Sequence record: OP172784
Length of the DNA stretch: 64,000 nt
Direction: 5' to 3' (one strand)
DNA from: Escherichia phage ECO07P1
Shown: piece after piece, positions 23,014-40,074 of the stretch
How the letters are laid out: each line of letters starts with the position of its first letter
Numbering within the stretch: position 1 is the stretch's first letter
Program-made: the position numbers and the translations under genes
Notes under the pieces: generated by a model
The model's input: the letters and a program-made list of their open reading frames with translations, nothing else
Databases searched by the model: none
What the model was told of the DNA's origin: nothing

Positions 23014-23086
23014 TGGGAATTAGCCAAGTTGGTAAGGCACTGGATTTTGATTCCAGGATGCAAAGGTTCGAGTCCTTTATTCCCAG
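23014..23086 (+). tRNA. tRNA-Gln (anticodon UUG)
   Basis: Manual cloverleaf: acceptor tgggaat/attccca, anticodon loop ttTTGat, T-loop GTTCGAG. Confidence 0.85.
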
Positions 23087-23087
23087 C

Positions 23088-23174
23088 GCGAGAATGGTCA
23101 AATTGGTAAAGGCACAGCACTTAAAATGCTGCGGAATGATTTCCTTGTGGGTTCGAGTCCCACTTCTCGCACCA
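23088..23174 (+). tRNA. tRNA-Leu (anticodon UAA)
   Basis: Acceptor gcgagaa/ttctcgc, anticodon loop ctTAAaa, long variable arm, encoded CCA. Confidence 0.85.
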
Positions 23175-23179
23175 AATTT

Positions 23180-23253
<74 letters not shown>

Positions 23254-23263
23254 ATTTAATTTA

Positions 23264-23337
23264 CTCCGTGTAGCTCAGTTTGGTAGAGCGTCTGCTTTGG
23301 GAGCAGAATGTCGCAGGTTCAAATCCTGCCGCGGAGA
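23264..23337 (+). tRNA. tRNA-Pro (anticodon UGG)
   Basis: Anticodon stem tctgc/gcaga, loop ttTGGga; T-loop GTTCAAA. Confidence 0.8.
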
Positions 23338-23339
23338 CT

Positions 23340-23429
23340 GGAGGCGTGGCAGAGTGGTTTAATGCACCGGTCTTGAAAACCGGCAGTCGCTCCGGCGACT
23401 CATAGGTTCAAATCCTATCGCCTCCGCCA
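23340..23429 (+). tRNA. tRNA-Ser (anticodon UGA)
   Basis: Acceptor ggaggcg/cgcctcc, loop ctTGAaa, long variable arm, CCA. Confidence 0.85.
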
Positions 23430-23434
23430 GTTTT

Positions 23435-23510
23435 GCTGATTTAGCTTAGTAGGTAGAGCAACTCACTTGTAATGAGAAGGTCGGCGGTTCGATTCCGTCA
23501 ATCAGCACCA
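23435..23510 (+). tRNA. tRNA-Thr (anticodon UGU)
   Basis: Acceptor gctgatt/aatcagc, loop ctTGTaa, T-loop GTTCGAT, CCA. Confidence 0.8.
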
Positions 23511-23511
23511 A

Positions 23512-23586
23512 GGCCCTGTAGCTGGAAGGTTCAAGCAAGCGACTCATAATCGCCAGATGGTGGTTCAATTCCACCCAGGGCCACCA
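23512..23586 (+). tRNA. tRNA with CAU anticodon (Ile2-type or Met; T4 tRNA-Ile has CAU)
   Basis: Acceptor ggccctg/cagggcc, loop ctCATaa, T-arm ggtgg-ttcaatt-ccacc, CCA. Confidence 0.75.
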
Positions 23587-23599
23587 AATTAAGAATTAA

Positions 23600-23686
23600 G
23601 GGGAGTTATCCCGTAGAGGTAGCGGTGTGGACTGTAAATCCATTGTCATTGCGACTCGGGTGGTTCGACTCCATCACTCCCCACCA
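23600..23686 (+). tRNA. tRNA-Tyr (anticodon GUA)
   Basis: Acceptor ggggagt/actcccc, anticodon stem gtgga/tccat, loop ctGTAaa, long variable arm, CCA. Confidence 0.8.
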
Positions 23687-23690
23687 ATTT

Positions 23691-23765
23691 GGATGTGTAG
23701 CTCAATGGCAGAGCGATCGCCTGTTAAGCGATTGGTTATAGGTTCGAATCCTATCACGTCCGCCA
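23691..23765 (+). tRNA. tRNA-Asn (anticodon GUU)
   Basis: Anticodon stem atcgc/gcgat, loop ctGTTaa, T-arm atagg-ttcgaat-cctat, CCA. Confidence 0.8.
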
Positions 23766-23769
23766 AATC

Positions 23770-23845
23770 CGAGGCATAGCTCAGAAGGAAGAGCAAGGAC
23801 CTTCTAAGTCCTAGGTCGTAGGTTCGATCCCTACTGCCTCGACCA
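23770..23845 (+). tRNA. tRNA-Arg (anticodon UCU)
   Basis: Acceptor cgaggca/tgcctcg, anticodon stem aggac/gtcct, loop ctTCTaa, CCA. Confidence 0.85.
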
Positions 23846-35430: not shown

Positions 35431-35614
35431 CCCTAAAAATAAAGCGGAAATTATTCGTCAATGGGAACGCATTTGCCGTACTAAATGCCCAATTAATAGT
35501 CCACATGATGTAGATAAAGACTATATTGGAACATTCGTTGAATATACCTTTATTGATAAGAAAGGTCGTAAACAACATGTAGAAGAATATTGCTTAAAGG
35601 TTACATGGTTATGA
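35402..35614 (+). CDS. hypothetical protein
   Basis: 70-aa ORF, Cys-containing. Confidence 0.5.
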   Translation: MKAHYPHPFDPKNKAEIIRQWERICRTKCPINSPHDVDKDYIGTFVEYTFIDKKGRKQHVEEYCLKVTWL

Positions 35615-35796
35615 GTCTGAGTAAAGAACAAAAAGACAGACTGTTTTCTCTTATTCACGAAGTTATGGATAAAAATAGTGAATTGGAAAAAGTTTGCGAT
35701 GAATGCGGTCCTTTTAATACCGACGAATACGAAGAACTGTGTAAAGATTTCGACGATAAAGAACAAGAACTTATTGATTATATAAATTCCTTATGA
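35611..35796 (+). CDS. small helical protein, EQ-family paralog
   Basis: 61 aa from MSLSKEQKDRLFSLIHEV; ATGA overlap. Confidence 0.5.
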   Translation: MSLSKEQKDRLFSLIHEVMDKNSELEKVCDECGPFNTDEYEELCKDFDDKEQELIDYINSL

Positions 35797-35981
35797 TTAC
35801 TCGCGAACAAAAGAATGAAATACGATTTTTAATCAGCGAAATTACTAGTTTAGAACGAGATTTATCTTTTGAATTGGCTTCGGATTATGGAGATGCTGAA
35901 ACATACTACGAATTAGTAAAATCTATCGATAAAGCTGAAAATGATTTAGAAACATATTTAGAAAATTTAACTAAGGACTAA
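35793..35981 (+). CDS. small helical protein, EQ-family paralog
   Basis: 62 aa, MITREQKNEIRFLISEI; ATGA overlap. Confidence 0.5.
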   Translation: MITREQKNEIRFLISEITSLERDLSFELASDYGDAETYYELVKSIDKAENDLETYLENLTKD

Positions 35982-35982
35982 G

Positions 35983-36564
35983 ATGGCGAGTTTAATTTTT
36001 ACTTATGCAGCAATGAATGCTGGAAAATCTGCTTCTCTTTTGACTGCTGCGCATAATTATAAAGAACGTGGAATGAGTGTATTAGTTCTTAAGCCTGCTA
36101 TTGATACTCGCGATTCTGTCTGTGAAGTCGTTTCTCGCATTGGAATTAAGCAGGAAGCGAATATTATTACGGATGATATGGATATTTTTGAGTTCTATAA
36201 ATGGGCTGAAGCACAAAAAGATATTCATTGCGTATTTGTAGATGAAGCCCAATTTTTAAAAACTGAACAGGTGCATCAATTAAGTCGAATTGTTGATACA
36301 TATAATGTTCCTGTTATGGCTTATGGTCTAAGGACTGATTTCGCTGGAAAATTATTTGAAGGTTCTAAGGAACTTTTGGCGATTGCAGATAAACTTATTG
36401 AACTGAAGGCAGTTTGTCATTGCGGTAAAAAAGCGATTATGACAGCTCGATTAATGGAAGATGGAACACCAGTTAAAGAAGGTAATCAAATCTGTATTGG
36501 TGATGAAATTTATGTTTCTTTGTGTAGAAAACATTGGAACGAATTAACTAAAAAGCTCGGTTAG
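35983..36564 (+). CDS. tk: thymidine kinase
   Basis: 193 aa; P-loop AMNAGKSASLL; C-terminal Zn-binding Cys pairs. Confidence 0.95.
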   Translation: MASLIFTYAAMNAGKSASLLTAAHNYKERGMSVLVLKPAIDTRDSVCEVVSRIGIKQEANIITDDMDIFEFYKWAEAQKDIHCVFVDEAQFLKTEQVHQLSRIVDTYNVPVMAYGLRTDFAGKLFEGSKELLAIADKLIELKAVCHCGKKAIMTARLMEDGTPVKEGNQICIGDEIYVSLCRKHWNELTKKLG

Positions 36565-36573
36565 TGCAAAAGT

Positions 36574-36581
36574 TATAAATA
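36574..36581 (+). promoter_or_regulatory. candidate late promoter TATAAATA upstream of rI.-1/rI
   Basis: Exact TATAAATA about 25 nt upstream of the 36607 ATG. Confidence 0.4.
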
Positions 36582-36606
36582 GGTTTATCTAACTAAAGGG
36601 GTATAT

Positions 36607-36819
36607 ATGCTACAATTAACTGAAAAGCAACTTCGCAATCTTACTGTTCTTCAATTAGATGAAATTCGTAGGGAAGTTGGAAATATCATTTCAGCTTTGC
36701 GTCGAGAAGTATCGCTCAACCAATCTCCGGCAGACTATACTAGATTGCGAAATTTTGAAAAATACCTTGATAAAGTTAAGGCCGTACATCGGCATAAAGT
36801 AAATACAGGACAAAAATGA
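36607..36819 (+). CDS. rI.-1: hypothetical protein at the rI.-1 position
   Basis: 70-aa ORF directly upstream of rI. Confidence 0.6.
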
Positions 36820-36831
36820 TAGGAGGCCTTT

Positions 36832-37125
36832 ATGGCCTTAAAAGCAGCGGCACTATTCGCCATGCTAGGATTAGCGTTTGTTTTATCTCCGCCGATTGAA
36901 GCGAATGTCGATCCTCATTTTGATAAATTTATGGAATCTGGTATTAGACATGTTTATACGCTTTTTGAAAATAAAAGCGTAGAATCATCTAAACAGTTCT
37001 ATAGTTTCATGCGAACGACCTATAAAAATGACCCGTGTTCTTCTGATTTTGAATGTATAGAACGAGGCGCGGAGATGGCACAATCATACGCTAGAATTAT
37101 GAACATTAAATTGGAGACTGAATGA
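36832..37125 (+). CDS. rI: lysis inhibition regulator rI (periplasmic antiholin)
   Basis: 97 aa; MALKAAALFAMLGLAFVLSPPIEANVDPHFDKF matches remembered T4 RI. Confidence 0.9.
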   Translation: MALKAAALFAMLGLAFVLSPPIEANVDPHFDKFMESGIRHVYTLFENKSVESSKQFYSFMRTTYKNDPCSSDFECIERGAEMAQSYARIMNIKLETE

Positions 37126-37508
37126 AATTCAGCGACTTTTCACAAAGTGGAAAACCTTCAAAGGCAGATGAATACTTAGGTTTATTAATGGCTGCGCAAG
37201 CTTATTTTCATTCTGCGCATTTTGAAACTAAAAGTTATGCTAGACACAAAGCATACGATTTTATTTTTTCCGAGTTGCCAGATTTGATTGATAAATTTGG
37301 TGAGCAATATTTGGGGTATTCTGGTAGAAAATACACACCTTCAATTCCAGATGCTAGTAAACTTCCTACCGACACAATTAAAATGATTGATCGTATACTA
37401 GACCAATCTAACAGCATTTACAAAGAAATGCCTCCAGCCATTCAAAGCACGATAGATGATATTACTGGAATGTTTTATCAAAGTAAGTATCTTCTTTCCC
37501 TCGAATAA
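37122..37508 (+). CDS. rI.1: hypothetical protein at the rI.1 position
   Basis: 128 aa; ATGA overlap with rI. Confidence 0.65.
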
Positions 37509-37512
37509 CATT

Positions 37513-37536
37513 AGTCTCCTTCGGGAGACTTTTTTC
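37513..37536 (+). terminator. rho-independent terminator
   Basis: agtctcc-ttcg-ggagact then TTTTTT. Confidence 0.65.
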
Positions 37537-37545
37537 ATTTTACCG

Positions 37546-37576
37546 GTTTACTTTCCATTTGAGCTGTGATACTATA
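37546..37576 (+). promoter_or_regulatory. early promoter
   Basis: GTTTAC, 18 bp, tGTGATACTAT; SD gaggag. Confidence 0.6.
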
Positions 37577-37603
37577 CAACCATCGGATAAAGAGGAGAAC
37601 ATC

Positions 37604-37792
37604 ATGAAAATTGAAGCACTTAATCAAGAAGGAAATATCTACGTCATCATTAATGGTGATTTTTTCGTCGACATGGATGAAGTTACCAGTGAAGAGCTTG
37701 TAGAACTTCTTAAGAAACGTTATGATATGTGTGATGAAGCTGCAACTCATATGGCGTGTGCAATGTTCTCTCTTTCATATGTGGTGGAATAA
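37604..37792 (+). CDS. hypothetical small protein
   Basis: 62 aa from [10 protein letters not shown]. Confidence 0.55.
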
Positions 37793-37995
37793 TGATTAGT
37801 ATAGAACAAGCAGATAAAATTAAAGAATTGATAGCTTTAATTCGCAAAGCAGACGAGGAACTTAGTGACTTTGCTTGGTTTTCGGCAGGCATTGCAAATA
37901 AAGGCGCTGAAGAACTTGAAGCTAAAGTTGATAATGCTGTAGAAGCTTTAGATATGTTTCTTGATGAAATTATCGATCACAATACGAGAGTTTAA
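37792..37995 (+). CDS. small helical protein, EQ-family paralog
   Basis: 67 aa, [17 protein letters not shown]; TAATG overlap. Confidence 0.5.
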   Translation: MISIEQADKIKELIALIRKADEELSDFAWFSAGIANKGAEELEAKVDNAVEALDMFLDEIIDHNTRV

Positions 37996-37997
37996 GT

Positions 37998-38192
37998 ATG
38001 CTAACACGTGAACAGTTTGAAAAAATCATTAAATTAGCACGTGATATTGAAATAGATTCATACCAATTGGCAGTTGAGCATTGTGAAGGATATTCATACG
38101 ATGGTATAGAAGCGGCTAAAAAGGATTTGGATAAATCCAAAGCTAAGTTAGTTCAATATCTTGAAATGATTAGGTGGAATAATGAAAACTGA
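37998..38192 (+). CDS. small helical protein, EQ-family paralog
   Basis: 64 aa, MLTREQFEKIIKLARDI. Confidence 0.5.
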   Translation: MLTREQFEKIIKLARDIEIDSYQLAVEHCEGYSYDGIEAAKKDLDKSKAKLVQYLEMIRWNNEN

Positions 38193-38355
38193 AAAGCAGA
38201 TGTTTTTAATGAAGCTAATTGAAGAATATGCTAATGCAGTTTCTGACTACGATTATTCTTCTCGTGAAAGAGGTACAGCTTTCGCAAAGGAAGAAATGAA
38301 AATCATGGTTGATGCTCACACAAAACTCCAGAATTTTATTGAAAACGTCATTTAA
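38182..38355 (+). CDS. small helical protein (57 aa), EQ-family-like
   Basis: MKTEKQMFLMKLIEEY; junction ggtggaataATGa identical to that of the 37792 gene. Confidence 0.4.
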   Translation: MKTEKQMFLMKLIEEYANAVSDYDYSSRERGTAFAKEEMKIMVDAHTKLQNFIENVI

Positions 38356-38522: not shown

Positions 38523-39080
38523 GTGAGTGAGTCGAAGAGAATCAATATGAAACGATTAGTATTAGAAGTTAGTCCGCTTTTTGGTGAATTGGCTATAGAA
38601 AAAGTAAATAACATGTATCGTTTGACGCAAGAAGACGATATGCTATATTTTACGCCTAGTGAAATCATTCATTTAACCCAAATTGAAAATCCTTATACTG
38701 ATAAAATTGTAAGCATTAATGATGAGCATAAAATTCATTTTTATTCTTTATGCCCAGGATTTAATATTGAAAGCGAGTCAATATGCTTATCAATTAATAA
38801 TTGGGATAATTTTATAACTTACATTAAATATTTTTATTATTCTAATGAAAGAAAACATAGTTTAAAATGGCTTAAAAATTGCAATGCTATTATTACTAAC
38901 GCTTGCGATCAGAATGATGAAACTGTTTTAAGTGTATCAAAATGTTATGAAGAAGGAGATGTCTTAACTATTCGTCAAATTGATGATTTTCGAGCGCATA
39001 TTGTCACATTTACCAAAGATGAAGCTATTGCGTTAAAGACTTATCTTGATTCTGTCATTCCAACTATGATTTCAAAGTGA
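38523..39080 (+). CDS. hypothetical protein, paralog A
   Basis: 185 aa, GTG start 10 nt after SD aaggag; C-terminus EAIALKTYLDSVIPTMISK. Confidence 0.6.
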   Translation: MSESKRINMKRLVLEVSPLFGELAIEKVNNMYRLTQEDDMLYFTPSEIIHLTQIENPYTDKIVSINDEHKIHFYSLCPGFNIESESICLSINNWDNFITYIKYFYYSNERKHSLKWLKNCNAIITNACDQNDETVLSVSKCYEEGDVLTIRQIDDFRAHIVTFTKDEAIALKTYLDSVIPTMISK

Positions 39081-39610
39081 GGAAATATGTGTTTATTTCA
39101 AGTGAAAGCGGTTTAATTCGTGTTGAATTTAAAAATGACATCTTCCTTATTCAAGGAGATGATATTATTAAAATGAGTTATGACGAAATCAAGAAAATTT
39201 GCCGTGCTCTTGAAAGTCATGGAAAAGTAAATGCTACTATCGATATAGGTGATTTATGGGTGACACTTTATGAAGTATCCGAAGGATTTAACATTGAAGA
39301 TGAAAACAACATCTTAGCTATTGATAAAAGAAGTGATTTGTTTGATGTGTTAAAAGTTTATGAACAGTCAAACGGTGGAAGAAAAGCTGCATTGATTTAT
39401 CAAAAACCACATTCATGTGGAACTGCTTCAATCATTTCAAATATTGAAGATGAAACTGATACTTATATGTGTGTTTTAAAGGCTGGCGGTGATCGTCATC
39501 CGGATTTTATTTCTATTCGTCAAAACAATGGAGAAATTTCATTATCAAAATCAGAAGCTGAAGCTATGATTAAGTATTTAACAACTGTTACACCTTCAAT
39601 GAAAGGATAG
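39077..39610 (+). CDS. hypothetical protein, paralog B
   Basis: 177 aa; C-terminus EAEAMIKYLTTVTPSMKG and GFNIEDEN resemble the upstream gene. Confidence 0.6.
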   Translation: MRKYVFISSESGLIRVEFKNDIFLIQGDDIIKMSYDEIKKICRALESHGKVNATIDIGDLWVTLYEVSEGFNIEDENNILAIDKRSDLFDVLKVYEQSNGGRKAALIYQKPHSCGTASIISNIEDETDTYMCVLKAGGDRHPDFISIRQNNGEISLSKSEAEAMIKYLTTVTPSMKG

Positions 39611-39612
39611 TT

Positions 39613-40074
39613 ATGATTATTAATGAAAGCTCTTGGCACTATAAATTATTCAAAATGTTTAATGATGAATGGAAACGACCTAAGACACTGTGCGCGTATT
39701 TTTGGTCTATTGTTATTCCTACATTTTTCGTTTCTTTTTTCGGATGTACTATACTCGCAGGTCTAACTATCATCTGCGCAGAAATTATGCAGAAATGGCT
39801 TATTTTTGGTAGTTTATGGACTCTTATTCCATCAGCATTTATACTTGCCATTTTGCTTGTTTTACTTATTATTGGTTCATTTGTTATTCCTGCACAACTG
39901 CGTGAAAAATATAAAGATTATAAATGGAAAAAGGATTATGCTTTACATGTAGAAAATATTGATAGGGCGTATAAAGGTTTACCTCCTATTCAACCCAAGA
40001 AATCTATTATCGTCGAATTTTTAAAAACGCGTAAAGCTAAAGTATGTCCTGTTATTGAATATAAGGCTGAATGA
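39613..40074 (+). CDS. membrane protein
   Basis: 153 aa; two long hydrophobic segments. Confidence 0.6.
   Translation: MIINESSWHYKLFKMFNDEWKRPKTLCAYFWSIVIPTFFVSFFGCTILAGLTIICAEIMQKWLIFGSLWTLIPSAFILAILLVLLIIGSFVIPAQLREKYKDYKWKKDYALHVENIDRAYKGLPPIQPKKSIIVEFLKTRKAKVCPVIEYKAE

What the first reader, a model, noticed from the sequence alone, without database searches (positions are those of the whole stretch)
35611..38355. Multi-copy family of ~60-aa helical proteins with an N-terminal x-x-E-Q motif, in two clusters flanking tk and rI
At least five short genes (35611, 35793, 37792, 37998, 38182) begin with related N-termini ([85 protein letters not shown]) and are joined by ATGA/TAATG overlaps. 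Two junctions share the 13-mer ggtggaataatga. A small-protein family expanded by local duplication is typical of early host-takeover or anti-defence genes.
Basis: seen in the sequence. Interest (0 to 1): 0.4.

Follow-up and report, generated by a model that had tools for sequence, protein, structure and literature searches.

The report
T4 Tk.1/Tk.2/MobD small-protein paralogs (DUF7438)
Five small neighbouring genes in this T4-like phage really are old copies of one gene family, already catalogued as Pfam DUF7438 (T4 genes tk.2, tk.1, mobD.4, mobD.3, mobD.2a). They encode acidic two-helix hairpin proteins that are made early in infection, can be lost without harm in the lab, and have no known function.

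Summary
The window is a Tequatrovirus (T4-like) genome. The five ORFs are tk.2, tk.1, mobD.4, mobD.3 and mobD.2a. All five match Pfam PF24219 (DUF7438) at E 3e-19 to 6e-14, and shuffled controls are beaten clearly for four of them. mobD.2a is weak within the window alone, but it is secured by the Pfam model and by the same predicted fold. No sixth member is in the window, and rI.1 is not one.

AlphaFold2 gives a confident helical hairpin (pLDDT 90 and 95). The conserved [ST]-x-E-Q sits just before helix 1 starts, so I read it as a helix N-cap. The shared 13-mer is a Shine-Dalgarno sequence plus start codon, not a duplication scar.

The duplications are old: there is no DNA similarity between copies, and orthologues of each copy occur in other T4-like genera. 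Copy number within 6 kb of tk ranges from 0 to 5 across 40 related loci. dN/dS is 0.07-0.28.

Published T4 data show early RNA and detected protein for four orthologues, and no fitness cost on knock-down or transposon insertion. The anti-defence or host-takeover role remains untested. The family is already catalogued, so novelty and interest are low.

The parts
35611..35796 (+). tk.2, 61 aa, DUF7438 member. An alternative in-frame ATG lies at 35605 (MVMSLSK...).
   Evidence: Pfam PF24219 at 2.7e-19. AF2 hairpin with helices 5-32 and 37-60, pLDDT 90. Named from RB32/T4. ATGA overlap with tk.3. Alternative start seen.
35793..35981 (+). tk.1, 62 aa, DUF7438 member, immediately upstream of tk (1-nt gap)
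   Evidence: Pfam 5.7e-14. Leave-one-out z 17.3. ATGA overlap with tk.2.
35983..36564 (+). tk, thymidine kinase. Context anchor between the two clusters; not a family member.
   Evidence: Annotation of relatives. Used as the anchor for 40 related loci.
37513..37530 (.). Terminator-like hairpin after rI.-1. It separates the tk-rI unit from the mobD.5-mobD.2a unit.
   Evidence: Consensus scan: 7-pair stem followed by a T run on the + strand.
37547..37576 (+). Promoter-like site (GTTTAC, then 16-18 nt, then GATACT/TACTAT) upstream of mobD.5
   Evidence: Read from the sequence; not listed by the sigma-70 consensus scan. In T4 a mobD.5 promoter was mapped by primer extension 3 min after infection (PMC1702504). 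Assigning it to this site is inference.
37604..37792 (+). mobD.5, 62 aa, first gene of the second operon. Not a family member (phrog_3024).
37783..37795 (+). 13-mer GGTGGAATAATGA. It combines a Shine-Dalgarno-like GGTGGA, the mobD.5 stop (TAA) and the mobD.4 start (ATG).
37792..37995 (+). mobD.4, 67 aa, DUF7438 member (long-loop allele)
   Evidence: Pfam 3.4e-16. Variability among 44 orthologues is concentrated in the loop. The T4 allele is 60 aa.
37998..38192 (+). mobD.3, 64 aa, DUF7438 member
   Evidence: Pfam 1.5e-17. The loop VEHCEGYSY is invariant in the 11 database orthologues aligned. In more distant genera only C-E-G-Y-S-Y is kept.
38173..38185 (+). Second copy of the 13-mer, inside the 3' end of mobD.3. 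It provides the SD and start codon of mobD.2a.
38182..38355 (+). mobD.2a, 57 aa, the most divergent DUF7438 member (phrog_2758). Full length here; truncated to 38 aa in the T4 reference record.
   Evidence: Pfam 4.4e-15. AF2 hairpin with helices 4-30 and 36-55, pLDDT 95. T4 truncation.

Best explanation
SHOWN:
- The five genes are ancient paralogs of one phage-specific family (Pfam DUF7438; PHROGs 653, 2758 and 4859). They correspond to T4 tk.2, tk.1, mobD.4, mobD.3 and mobD.2a.
- Each encodes a protein of about 60 aa with pI 4.2-5.2, predicted with high confidence to be a single antiparallel helical hairpin.
- They sit in two tightly packed gene strings, tk.3-tk.2-tk.1-tk and mobD.5-mobD.4-mobD.3-mobD.2a, whose neighbours overlap or abut.
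- They are under purifying selection.
- In T4 four of them are detected as proteins early or in mid-infection, and each is individually dispensable in laboratory hosts.

INFERRED mechanism:
- The tight spacing suggests translational coupling within each string.
- The T/S of the [ST]-x-E-Q N-terminus is the N-cap of helix 1.
- The almost invariant residues are E5, Q6, I/L10, L13, L52, Y/F55, L56 and L59 (tk.1 numbering). All lie at the open end of the hairpin, where the two termini pack together. There they form a hydrophobic patch wider than a two-helix core needs.
- The loop end differs between paralogs. It is also the most variable part within the mobD.4 lineage.
- I therefore propose that these are small protein-binding modules. 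They self-associate, or dock to a common partner, through the conserved open end, probably forming Rop-like four-helix-bundle dimers. They present paralog-specific loop ends to different host or phage proteins.
- On this view they are accessory, condition-dependent modulators of the infected cell, acting in host takeover or counter-defence.
- Their net negative charge argues against direct nucleic-acid binding.
For: - Family membership.
- Better than shuffles.
- Exactly five members in the window.
- Fold.
- Helix 1 starts directly after S4 (tk.2) and T3 (mobD.2a).
- Conserved and hydrophobic columns across 70 unique members.
- Acidity.
- Loop-focused variability in mobD.4.
- dN/dS 0.07-0.28.
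- Gene junctions.
- T4 orthologues show early RNA and detected protein: PMC9697503 supplement.
- Promoter: PMC1702504.
- Dispensability: the viable nrdC.11-mobD.3 deletion in PMC9825161, 'Not Fit' in CRISPRi-ART, 'Non-essential' in HIDEN-SEQ.
- Patchy presence across T4-like phages, as expected of an accessory gene: 0-5 copies near tk and allele replacement at the tk-upstream slot.
- The family is narrow, with only 33 cluster representatives at E<=1e-3 among 1.84 billion proteins.
Against: - No partner, oligomeric state or phenotype is known.
- The T4 screens show no fitness effect: CRISPRi-ART knock-downs for all five genes, and the one HIDEN-SEQ comparison read for tk.1, tk.2, mobD.2a, mobD.3 and mobD.4 (q = 1.0). 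An anti-defence role therefore has no positive support. Redundancy between paralogs could mask an effect, but that is an excuse rather than evidence.
- mobD.3 keeps its loop invariant, the opposite pattern to mobD.4.
Confidence: 0.4

Rival explanations
1. Accessory subunits or adaptors of phage nucleotide metabolism. A family member sits directly upstream of thymidine kinase, close enough for translational coupling, so the hairpins might tether or regulate TK or the dNTP-synthesising enzymes.
For: A member lies 160-200 nt upstream of the tk start in the window, RB32, T4, the Edwardsiella phages PEi20/PEi26 and many IMG/VR loci. The gap between tk.1 and tk is 1 nt.
Against: - 15 of 40 tk-anchored loci have no detectable member within 6 kb, not even a marginal hit, yet keep tk.
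- Three of the five copies lie in a separate transcription unit behind a terminator.
- The gene in the tk-upstream slot is swapped between unrelated subtypes among phages whose TK is 99-100% identical.
- tk itself and all five genes are dispensable.
Confidence: 0.12
2. Rop-like nucleic-acid-binding regulators. The hairpins dimerise into four-helix bundles that bind RNA or DNA structures and tune early gene expression.
Against: - No sequence relationship: no Pfam Rop hit at E<=1, and 5-14% identity.
- Net charge is -2 to -11 and there is no conserved basic column.
- The hairpin fold is matched by more than 1000 unrelated chains.
Confidence: 0.05
3. The peptides themselves are unimportant. The ORFs are kept as translated spacers that deliver ribosomes to downstream genes such as tk.
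For: Overlapping stop/start codons and weak Shine-Dalgarno sequences upstream of tk.1. No knock-down phenotype.
Against: - dN/dS of 0.07-0.28 shows selection on the amino-acid sequence.
- The family profile is conserved across genera at 20-30% identity, with a confident common fold.
- The proteins are detected by mass spectrometry in T4 infection.
- mobD.2a is the last gene of its string and has nothing coupled behind it.
Confidence: 0.05
4. The resemblance is compositional, from shared amphipathic-helix bias and a common N-terminus, and not true homology.
For: Some pairs are not significant on their own. mobD.3/mobD.2a gives z -0.1, and tk.2/mobD.4 gives z 1.8. The leave-one-out score for mobD.2a is only z 2.3.
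Against: - Composition-matched shuffles never reach the observed score for four members.
- An independent curated Pfam model scores all five at 2-3 times its threshold.
- Helical neighbours of the same size (rI.1, mobD.5) score like shuffles.
- Intermediate sequences from other phages link the subtypes.
Confidence: 0.02

Closest known systems
Pfam PF24219 (DUF7438) / PHROG 653, 2758, 4859: T4 Tk.1, Tk.2, MobD.4, MobD.3, MobD.2a
   Same: The window genes are these genes. They give full-length matches above threshold, sit in the same order as in T4 and RB32, and the region is 95-98% identical in DNA to hundreds of Tequatrovirus records.
   Different: Nothing essential.
- mobD.2a is full length here (57 aa) but 38 aa in the T4 reference record.
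- mobD.4 is the 67-aa long-loop allele, against 60 aa in T4.
- The window lacks the two extra ORFs that RB32 carries between tk.3 and tk.2.
ColE1 Rop/Rom (63-aa helical hairpin, dimeric four-helix bundle, binds RNA kissing complexes)
   Different: There is no sequence similarity. The phage family is strongly acidic and has no conserved basic surface. Its oligomeric state is unknown, and the fold match is not specific.
Small acidic early phage proteins that inhibit host proteins (e.g. T4 AsiA or Arn, T7 Gp5.9 and Ocr; recalled from general knowledge)
   Same: Small, acidic, expressed early, non-essential in laboratory strains, and located in a variable accessory region of the genome.
   Different: No sequence or specific structural relationship was found. 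No target or phenotype is known for DUF7438. This is an analogy only.

Membership tests
Pfam PF24219 DUF7438 | Whole-protein score above the curated gathering threshold (25 bits) | tested here: met
   69.7, 52.7, 59.8, 64.1 and 56.2 bits for tk.2, tk.1, mobD.4, mobD.3 and mobD.2a. All 27 diverse members of alignment A3 also match.
Pfam PF24219 DUF7438 | A single domain spanning essentially the whole protein of about 57-67 aa | tested here: met
   Matches cover profile positions 1-57 (1-56 for mobD.2a) of 57, and residues 1-3 to 55-61 of each protein.
Pfam PF24219 DUF7438 | Common fold among members (not a formal Pfam criterion; used here as a consistency check) | tested here: met
   AF2 gives the same two-helix hairpin for tk.2 and for the most divergent member, mobD.2a (pLDDT 90 and 95).
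PHROG 653 (with sister PHROGs 2758 and 4859) | Significant profile match | tested here: met
   tk.2, tk.1, mobD.4 and mobD.3 match phrog_653 at 7e-21 to 2e-25. mobD.2a matches phrog_2758 at 1.3e-34. Cross-hits to phrog_4859.
Helicase loader (label of phrog_4859 and of some GenBank records; T4 gp59-type loaders) | Sequence relationship to a characterised helicase-loader family | tested here: not met
   The Pfam scans of the five window proteins at E<=1 and of 27 family members at E<=0.001 list no family annotated as a helicase loader. The label sits on 59-aa RB69-type Tk.1 proteins, which RB69's own record calls 'Tk.1 conserved hypothetical protein'. The name has no visible experimental basis.
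MobD homing endonuclease, and 'molybdopterin-guanine dinucleotide biosynthesis protein MobD' (names attached to some members in NCBI) | An HNH nuclease domain, or a molybdopterin-cofactor biosynthesis domain | tested here: not met
   Only DUF7438 is found in these proteins. 'mobD.x' merely denotes position next to the T4 mobD gene. The molybdopterin name is a gene-symbol mix-up. The window has no mobD gene at all.
Rop/Rom family | Sequence match to the Rop profile | tested here: not met
   No Pfam hit at E<=1. Identity in structural alignments is 5-14%.
Rop/Rom family | Homodimeric antiparallel four-helix bundle | not testable with these tools
Anti-defence or host-takeover protein (functional class) | A demonstrated target or a defence-dependent phenotype | not testable with these tools
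   Published T4 screens report no effect for these genes: CRISPRi-ART 'Not Fit', HIDEN-SEQ 'Non-essential', and q = 1.0 in the one comparison read. No paper assigns a function.

The most novel reading that the evidence does not exclude
The five hairpins are a combinatorial set. They homo- and heterodimerise through the conserved open end into four-helix bundles whose two loop ends carry different specificities. That would give the phage a panel of small decoys or inhibitors against host defence or stress proteins. Redundancy between paralogs would explain why single knock-downs and single insertions show no phenotype. The allele swapping and loop hypervariability (mobD.4, and the tk-upstream slot) would be the footprint of an arms race.
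Probability: 0.1. Interest if true: 0.55.

Novelty: already known. Interest (0 to 1): 0.2.

Why it matters
The direct value is limited. The family, its members and their paralogy are already recorded in Pfam and PHROGs. The genes are near-identical to those of hundreds of sequenced T4-like phages.

What remains open is the function. Several features make DUF7438 a reasonable but not exceptional candidate for a multi-gene deletion and interaction study in T4:
- It is a five-copy family under purifying selection.
- It is expressed early.
- Its copy number varies among T4-like phages, and alleles are replaced at the tk-upstream slot.

The analysis also corrects two misleading database names ('helicase loader' and 'molybdopterin-guanine dinucleotide biosynthesis protein MobD').

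Tried and rejected
- rI.1 as a sixth member. It has a TEKQ N-terminus, a Smith-Waterman z of 3.3 against tk.1, and an exact 12-mer shared with mobD.2a. I rejected it. It is basic (pI 10.2), belongs to a different Pfam/PHROG family, scores like shuffles in the leave-one-out HMMs, and never enters an HMM iterated to convergence.
- The two extra RB32 ORFs between tk.3 and tk.2 as members. No HMM hit.
- Tk.2/Tk.1 hybrid proteins in the databases (P0019, P0073) as proof of unequal crossing-over. The UFV-AREG1 hybrid is absent from the current version of that record, which has two separate genes. It is probably an old assembly artefact, so I did not use it.
- The idea that L013-L015 (contigs of about 121 kb) were T5-like phages carrying the cassette. 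I dropped it because the P0105 subtype maps to RB69-like and other T4-like phages.
- The search for related loci with the family alignment failed for lack of a conserved stretch. I used TK as the anchor instead.
- The first literature search on 'tk.1'/'tk.2' returned only noise.
- The non-T4-like contig L005, which carries a 117-aa DUF7438 protein, has no relative in the phage collection.
Full report
**Identity of the region.** The 3.2-kb stretch is 95-98% identical to several hundred Tequatrovirus (T4-like) genomes. In the T4 nomenclature used in the RB32 and T4 records, the gene order on the + strand is vs.1, vs, tk.4, tk.3, tk.2, tk.1, tk, rI.1, rI, rI.-1, mobD.5, mobD.4, mobD.3, mobD.2a, then two mobD.1-like genes. 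The five ORFs of the finding are:
- tk.2, 35611-35796
- tk.1, 35793-35981
- mobD.4, 37792-37995
- mobD.3, 37998-38192
- mobD.2a, 38182-38355

**Is the similarity real?** Yes.
- All five match one curated model, Pfam PF24219 (DUF7438). The matches run end to end at 52.7-69.7 bits, against a 25-bit threshold.
- Four fall in phrog_653 and mobD.2a in phrog_2758.
- Against 1000 composition-preserving shuffles, four pairs are significant. These are tk.2/tk.1, tk.2/mobD.3 and tk.1/mobD.3 (z 6.4-7.6, 0/1000 shuffles) and tk.1/mobD.4 (z 5.0, 1/1000).
- In a leave-one-out test that uses only the window's own paralogs, four genes beat all 500 shuffles (z 5.1-17.3). mobD.2a is marginal (z 2.3, 2/500). Its membership rests on the independent Pfam model (4.4e-15) and on its predicted fold.
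- The helical neighbours of similar size (rI.1, mobD.5, tk.3) score like shuffles.
- HMMs built from 5, about 90 and 27 sequences, and one iterated to convergence over the window plus 47 related loci, find exactly five members in the 64-kb window.

**Structure and the N-terminal motif.** AlphaFold2 predicts a single antiparallel helical hairpin for tk.2 (helices 5-32 and 37-60, pLDDT 90) and for the most divergent paralog, mobD.2a (helices 4-30 and 36-55, pLDDT 95).
- In both models helix 1 begins immediately after the conserved Ser/Thr. From this I infer that [ST]-x-E-Q is a helix N-cap followed by favourable N-terminal helix residues.
- Across 70 unique members, the nearly invariant positions (tk.1 numbering) are E5, Q6, I/L10, L13, I/L17, L52, Y/F55, L/I56 and L/I59. 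Small Ala residues occupy the central core positions 20 and 48.
- Apart from position 17, the strongly conserved residues cluster at the open end of the hairpin, where the termini meet. Extra hydrophobic positions (11, 14, 56) widen the apolar stripe there.
- The loop end differs between paralogs.
- The proteins are acidic, with pI 4.2-5.2 and net charge -2 to -11.

**Gene packing and the 13-mer.**
- Junctions are ATGA overlaps at tk.3/tk.2 and tk.2/tk.1, and TAATG at mobD.5/mobD.4. There is a 2-nt gap at mobD.4/mobD.3, an 11-nt overlap at mobD.3/mobD.2a, and a 1-nt gap at tk.1/tk.
- The 13-mer GGTGGAATAATGA occurs only at 37783 and 38173 (0.08 expected).
- At both sites it holds the same register relative to the downstream start: GGTGGA, then ATA, then ATG.
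- Relative to the upstream gene the register differs. At one site it spans the stop codon of mobD.5; at the other it lies inside mobD.3 codons.
- Similar GGTGAATAATGA or GGCAAATAATGA starts precede family members in other genera.
- It is therefore a Shine-Dalgarno plus start-codon element, not a duplication scar.
- Otherwise the paralogs share no DNA repeat.
- A terminator-like hairpin (37513-37530) and a promoter-like site precede mobD.5. In T4 a mobD.5 promoter was mapped by primer extension (PMC1702504).

**Evolution.**
- The family is narrow. An exhaustive HMM search of 1.84 billion cluster representatives finds only 33 at E<=1e-3. Those I could place are in T4-like phages of enterobacteria, including the Edwardsiella phages PEi20/PEi26. 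One 117-aa protein sits on an unplaced 9.9-kb contig.
- I fetched forty loci using TK as the anchor (47-100% TK identity). They carry 0 to 5 recognisable members within 6 kb of tk, all on the tk strand and in the same two positions, upstream of tk and downstream of rI.-1.
- Each window paralog has orthologues in more distant loci. One example is the mobD.3 type, which keeps its C-E-G-Y-S-Y loop. The duplications therefore predate those genera.
- Phages whose TK is 99-100% identical to the window's can carry a single, about 55%-identical tk.2 allele and no tk.1. One of them carries a further, sixth-type copy after mobD.2a.

Record counts in the phage collection:

| Query | Records |
|---|---|
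| TK at >=95% identity | 501 |
| tk.2 at >=80% identity | 168 |
| tk.2 match below 60% identity (divergent tk.2-like sequences) | 573 |
| tk.1 | 194 |
| mobD.4 | 504 |
| mobD.3 | 585 |
| mobD.2a | 491 |

- In the T4 reference record mobD.2a is truncated to 38 aa and mobD.4 is a 60-aa short-loop allele.
- Among close relatives dN/dS is 0.07-0.28. The highest value is in mobD.4, whose variability is concentrated in the loop.
- A Tk.2/Tk.1 hybrid protein in UniRef (UFV-AREG1) is absent from the current version of that record. I did not use it as evidence of recombination.

**Experimental knowledge from T4.**
- A time-resolved omics study classifies mobD.3 and mobD.4 as early RNA and early protein, and tk.1 and tk.2 as early RNA and middle protein. 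mobD.2a has early RNA and no protein class (PMC9697503 supplement).
- A viable genome-reduced T4 lacks nrdC.11 through mobD.3 (PMC9825161).
- CRISPRi-ART knock-downs of all five are 'Not Fit', meaning no fitness effect (PMC11879866 supplement).
- HIDEN-SEQ transposon insertions are tolerated in all five. The one comparison I read shows no significant change (bioRxiv 10.1101/2025.11.20.689424 supplement).
- No paper in the searchable library assigns a function.
- The labels 'helicase loader' (phrog_4859 and some GenBank records) and 'molybdopterin-guanine dinucleotide biosynthesis protein MobD' are annotation artefacts.

**Interpretation.** Shown: these are five ancient paralogs of a catalogued phage family of small acidic hairpin proteins. 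They are under purifying selection, and their T4 orthologues are expressed early and individually dispensable. Inferred, with confidence about 0.4: they are protein-binding modules. They would associate with themselves or a common partner through the conserved open end, probably as four-helix bundles, and use paralog-specific loop ends on different targets. On this view they serve as condition-dependent accessory factors.

The rivals are less likely:
- TK or dNTP-complex adaptors. Synteny favours this, but 15 of 40 tk loci lack any detectable member.
- Rop-like nucleic-acid binders. The acidity of the proteins argues against it.
- Mere translated spacers. dN/dS and protein detection argue against it.
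- Chance similarity. This was tested and rejected.

**Verdict.** However, the family is already known as DUF7438 / T4 tk.1, tk.2, mobD.2a-4. The functional suggestion remains untested, and the available genome-wide screens give it no support. Interest is low.

Noticed in passing
window 38523-39080 and 39077-39610: A second local duplication. Two adjacent mobD.1-like genes (185 and 177 aa) are 28% identical over their full length (E 2e-11). RB32 annotates the second as 'similar to mobD.1'.
   Followed up: partly
window 39613-40074: The MobD HNH homing-endonuclease gene of T4 is absent. A 153-aa ORF that looks hydrophobic and membrane-spanning (by eye, not tested) sits between the mobD.1-like genes and nrdC.11. 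RB32 has the same arrangement, with RB32ORF096c annotated 'replaces mobD'.
   Followed up: no
window 23014-23845: A cluster of 10 tRNA genes: Gln, Leu, Gly, Pro, Ser, Thr, Met(CAT), Tyr, Asn and Arg. From memory, T4 itself carries 8, so Tyr and Asn appear to be extra.
   Followed up: no
window 35695-35706 (tk.2 residues C29-D-E-C32): tk.2 carries a CxxC motif at the end of helix 1, next to the hairpin apex. It is kept in T4-type tk.2 alleles (CDEC, CNEC, CSEC) but absent from the divergent tk.2 allele (YDEYGPL) of closely related phages. A metal or disulfide role is therefore not general to the family.
   Followed up: partly
window 35605 vs 35611: The tk.2 start is ambiguous. An in-frame ATG six bases upstream (MVMSLSK...) has better spacing to the AAAGG Shine-Dalgarno sequence. 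The annotated ATG makes the ATGA overlap with tk.3. Some database entries use the longer form (63 aa).
   Followed up: partly
window 36618-36629 and 38187-38198: rI.1 and mobD.2a share the exact 12-mer AACTGAAAAGCA, encoding T-E-K-Q near both N-termini. Even so, rI.1 is basic (pI 10.2), belongs to another family (PF26904) and is not a detectable relative. The match is probably chance.
   Followed up: yes
L001 (RB32) 1706-2088; same place in T4_ev240, RB33 and others: Many close relatives carry an insertion of about 373 bp with two extra small ORFs between tk.3 and tk.2. The window lacks it. Neither ORF is a DUF7438 member.
   Followed up: partly
L048 (T4 AF158101) 2050-2166: In the T4 reference record mobD.2a is only 38 aa, a truncated copy of the 57-aa gene present in the window. 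The T4 stock used for HIDEN-SEQ lists a 174-nt mobD.2a. The truncation may therefore be specific to one stock or one sequence record.
   Followed up: partly
database records (P0007, P0041, P0075, P0092; H68, H71, H74): DUF7438 proteins are mislabelled in public records. NCBI calls some 'molybdopterin-guanine dinucleotide biosynthesis protein MobD'. phrog_4859 and several phage records call them 'helicase loader'.
   Followed up: yes
P0019 vs L049 (UFV-AREG1 KX009778.4) 712-1082: UniRef holds a Tk.2/Tk.1 hybrid protein from UFV-AREG1, but the current version of the record has two separate genes. The hybrid looks like an earlier assembly collapse of the two paralogs.
   Followed up: yes
L005 7203-7556: A 117-aa protein with an N-terminal DUF7438 hairpin and a C-terminal extension of about 60 aa sits on a 9.9-kb metagenomic contig. 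The contig has no relative in the phage collection. This is the only hint that the family exists outside T4-like phages.
   Followed up: partly
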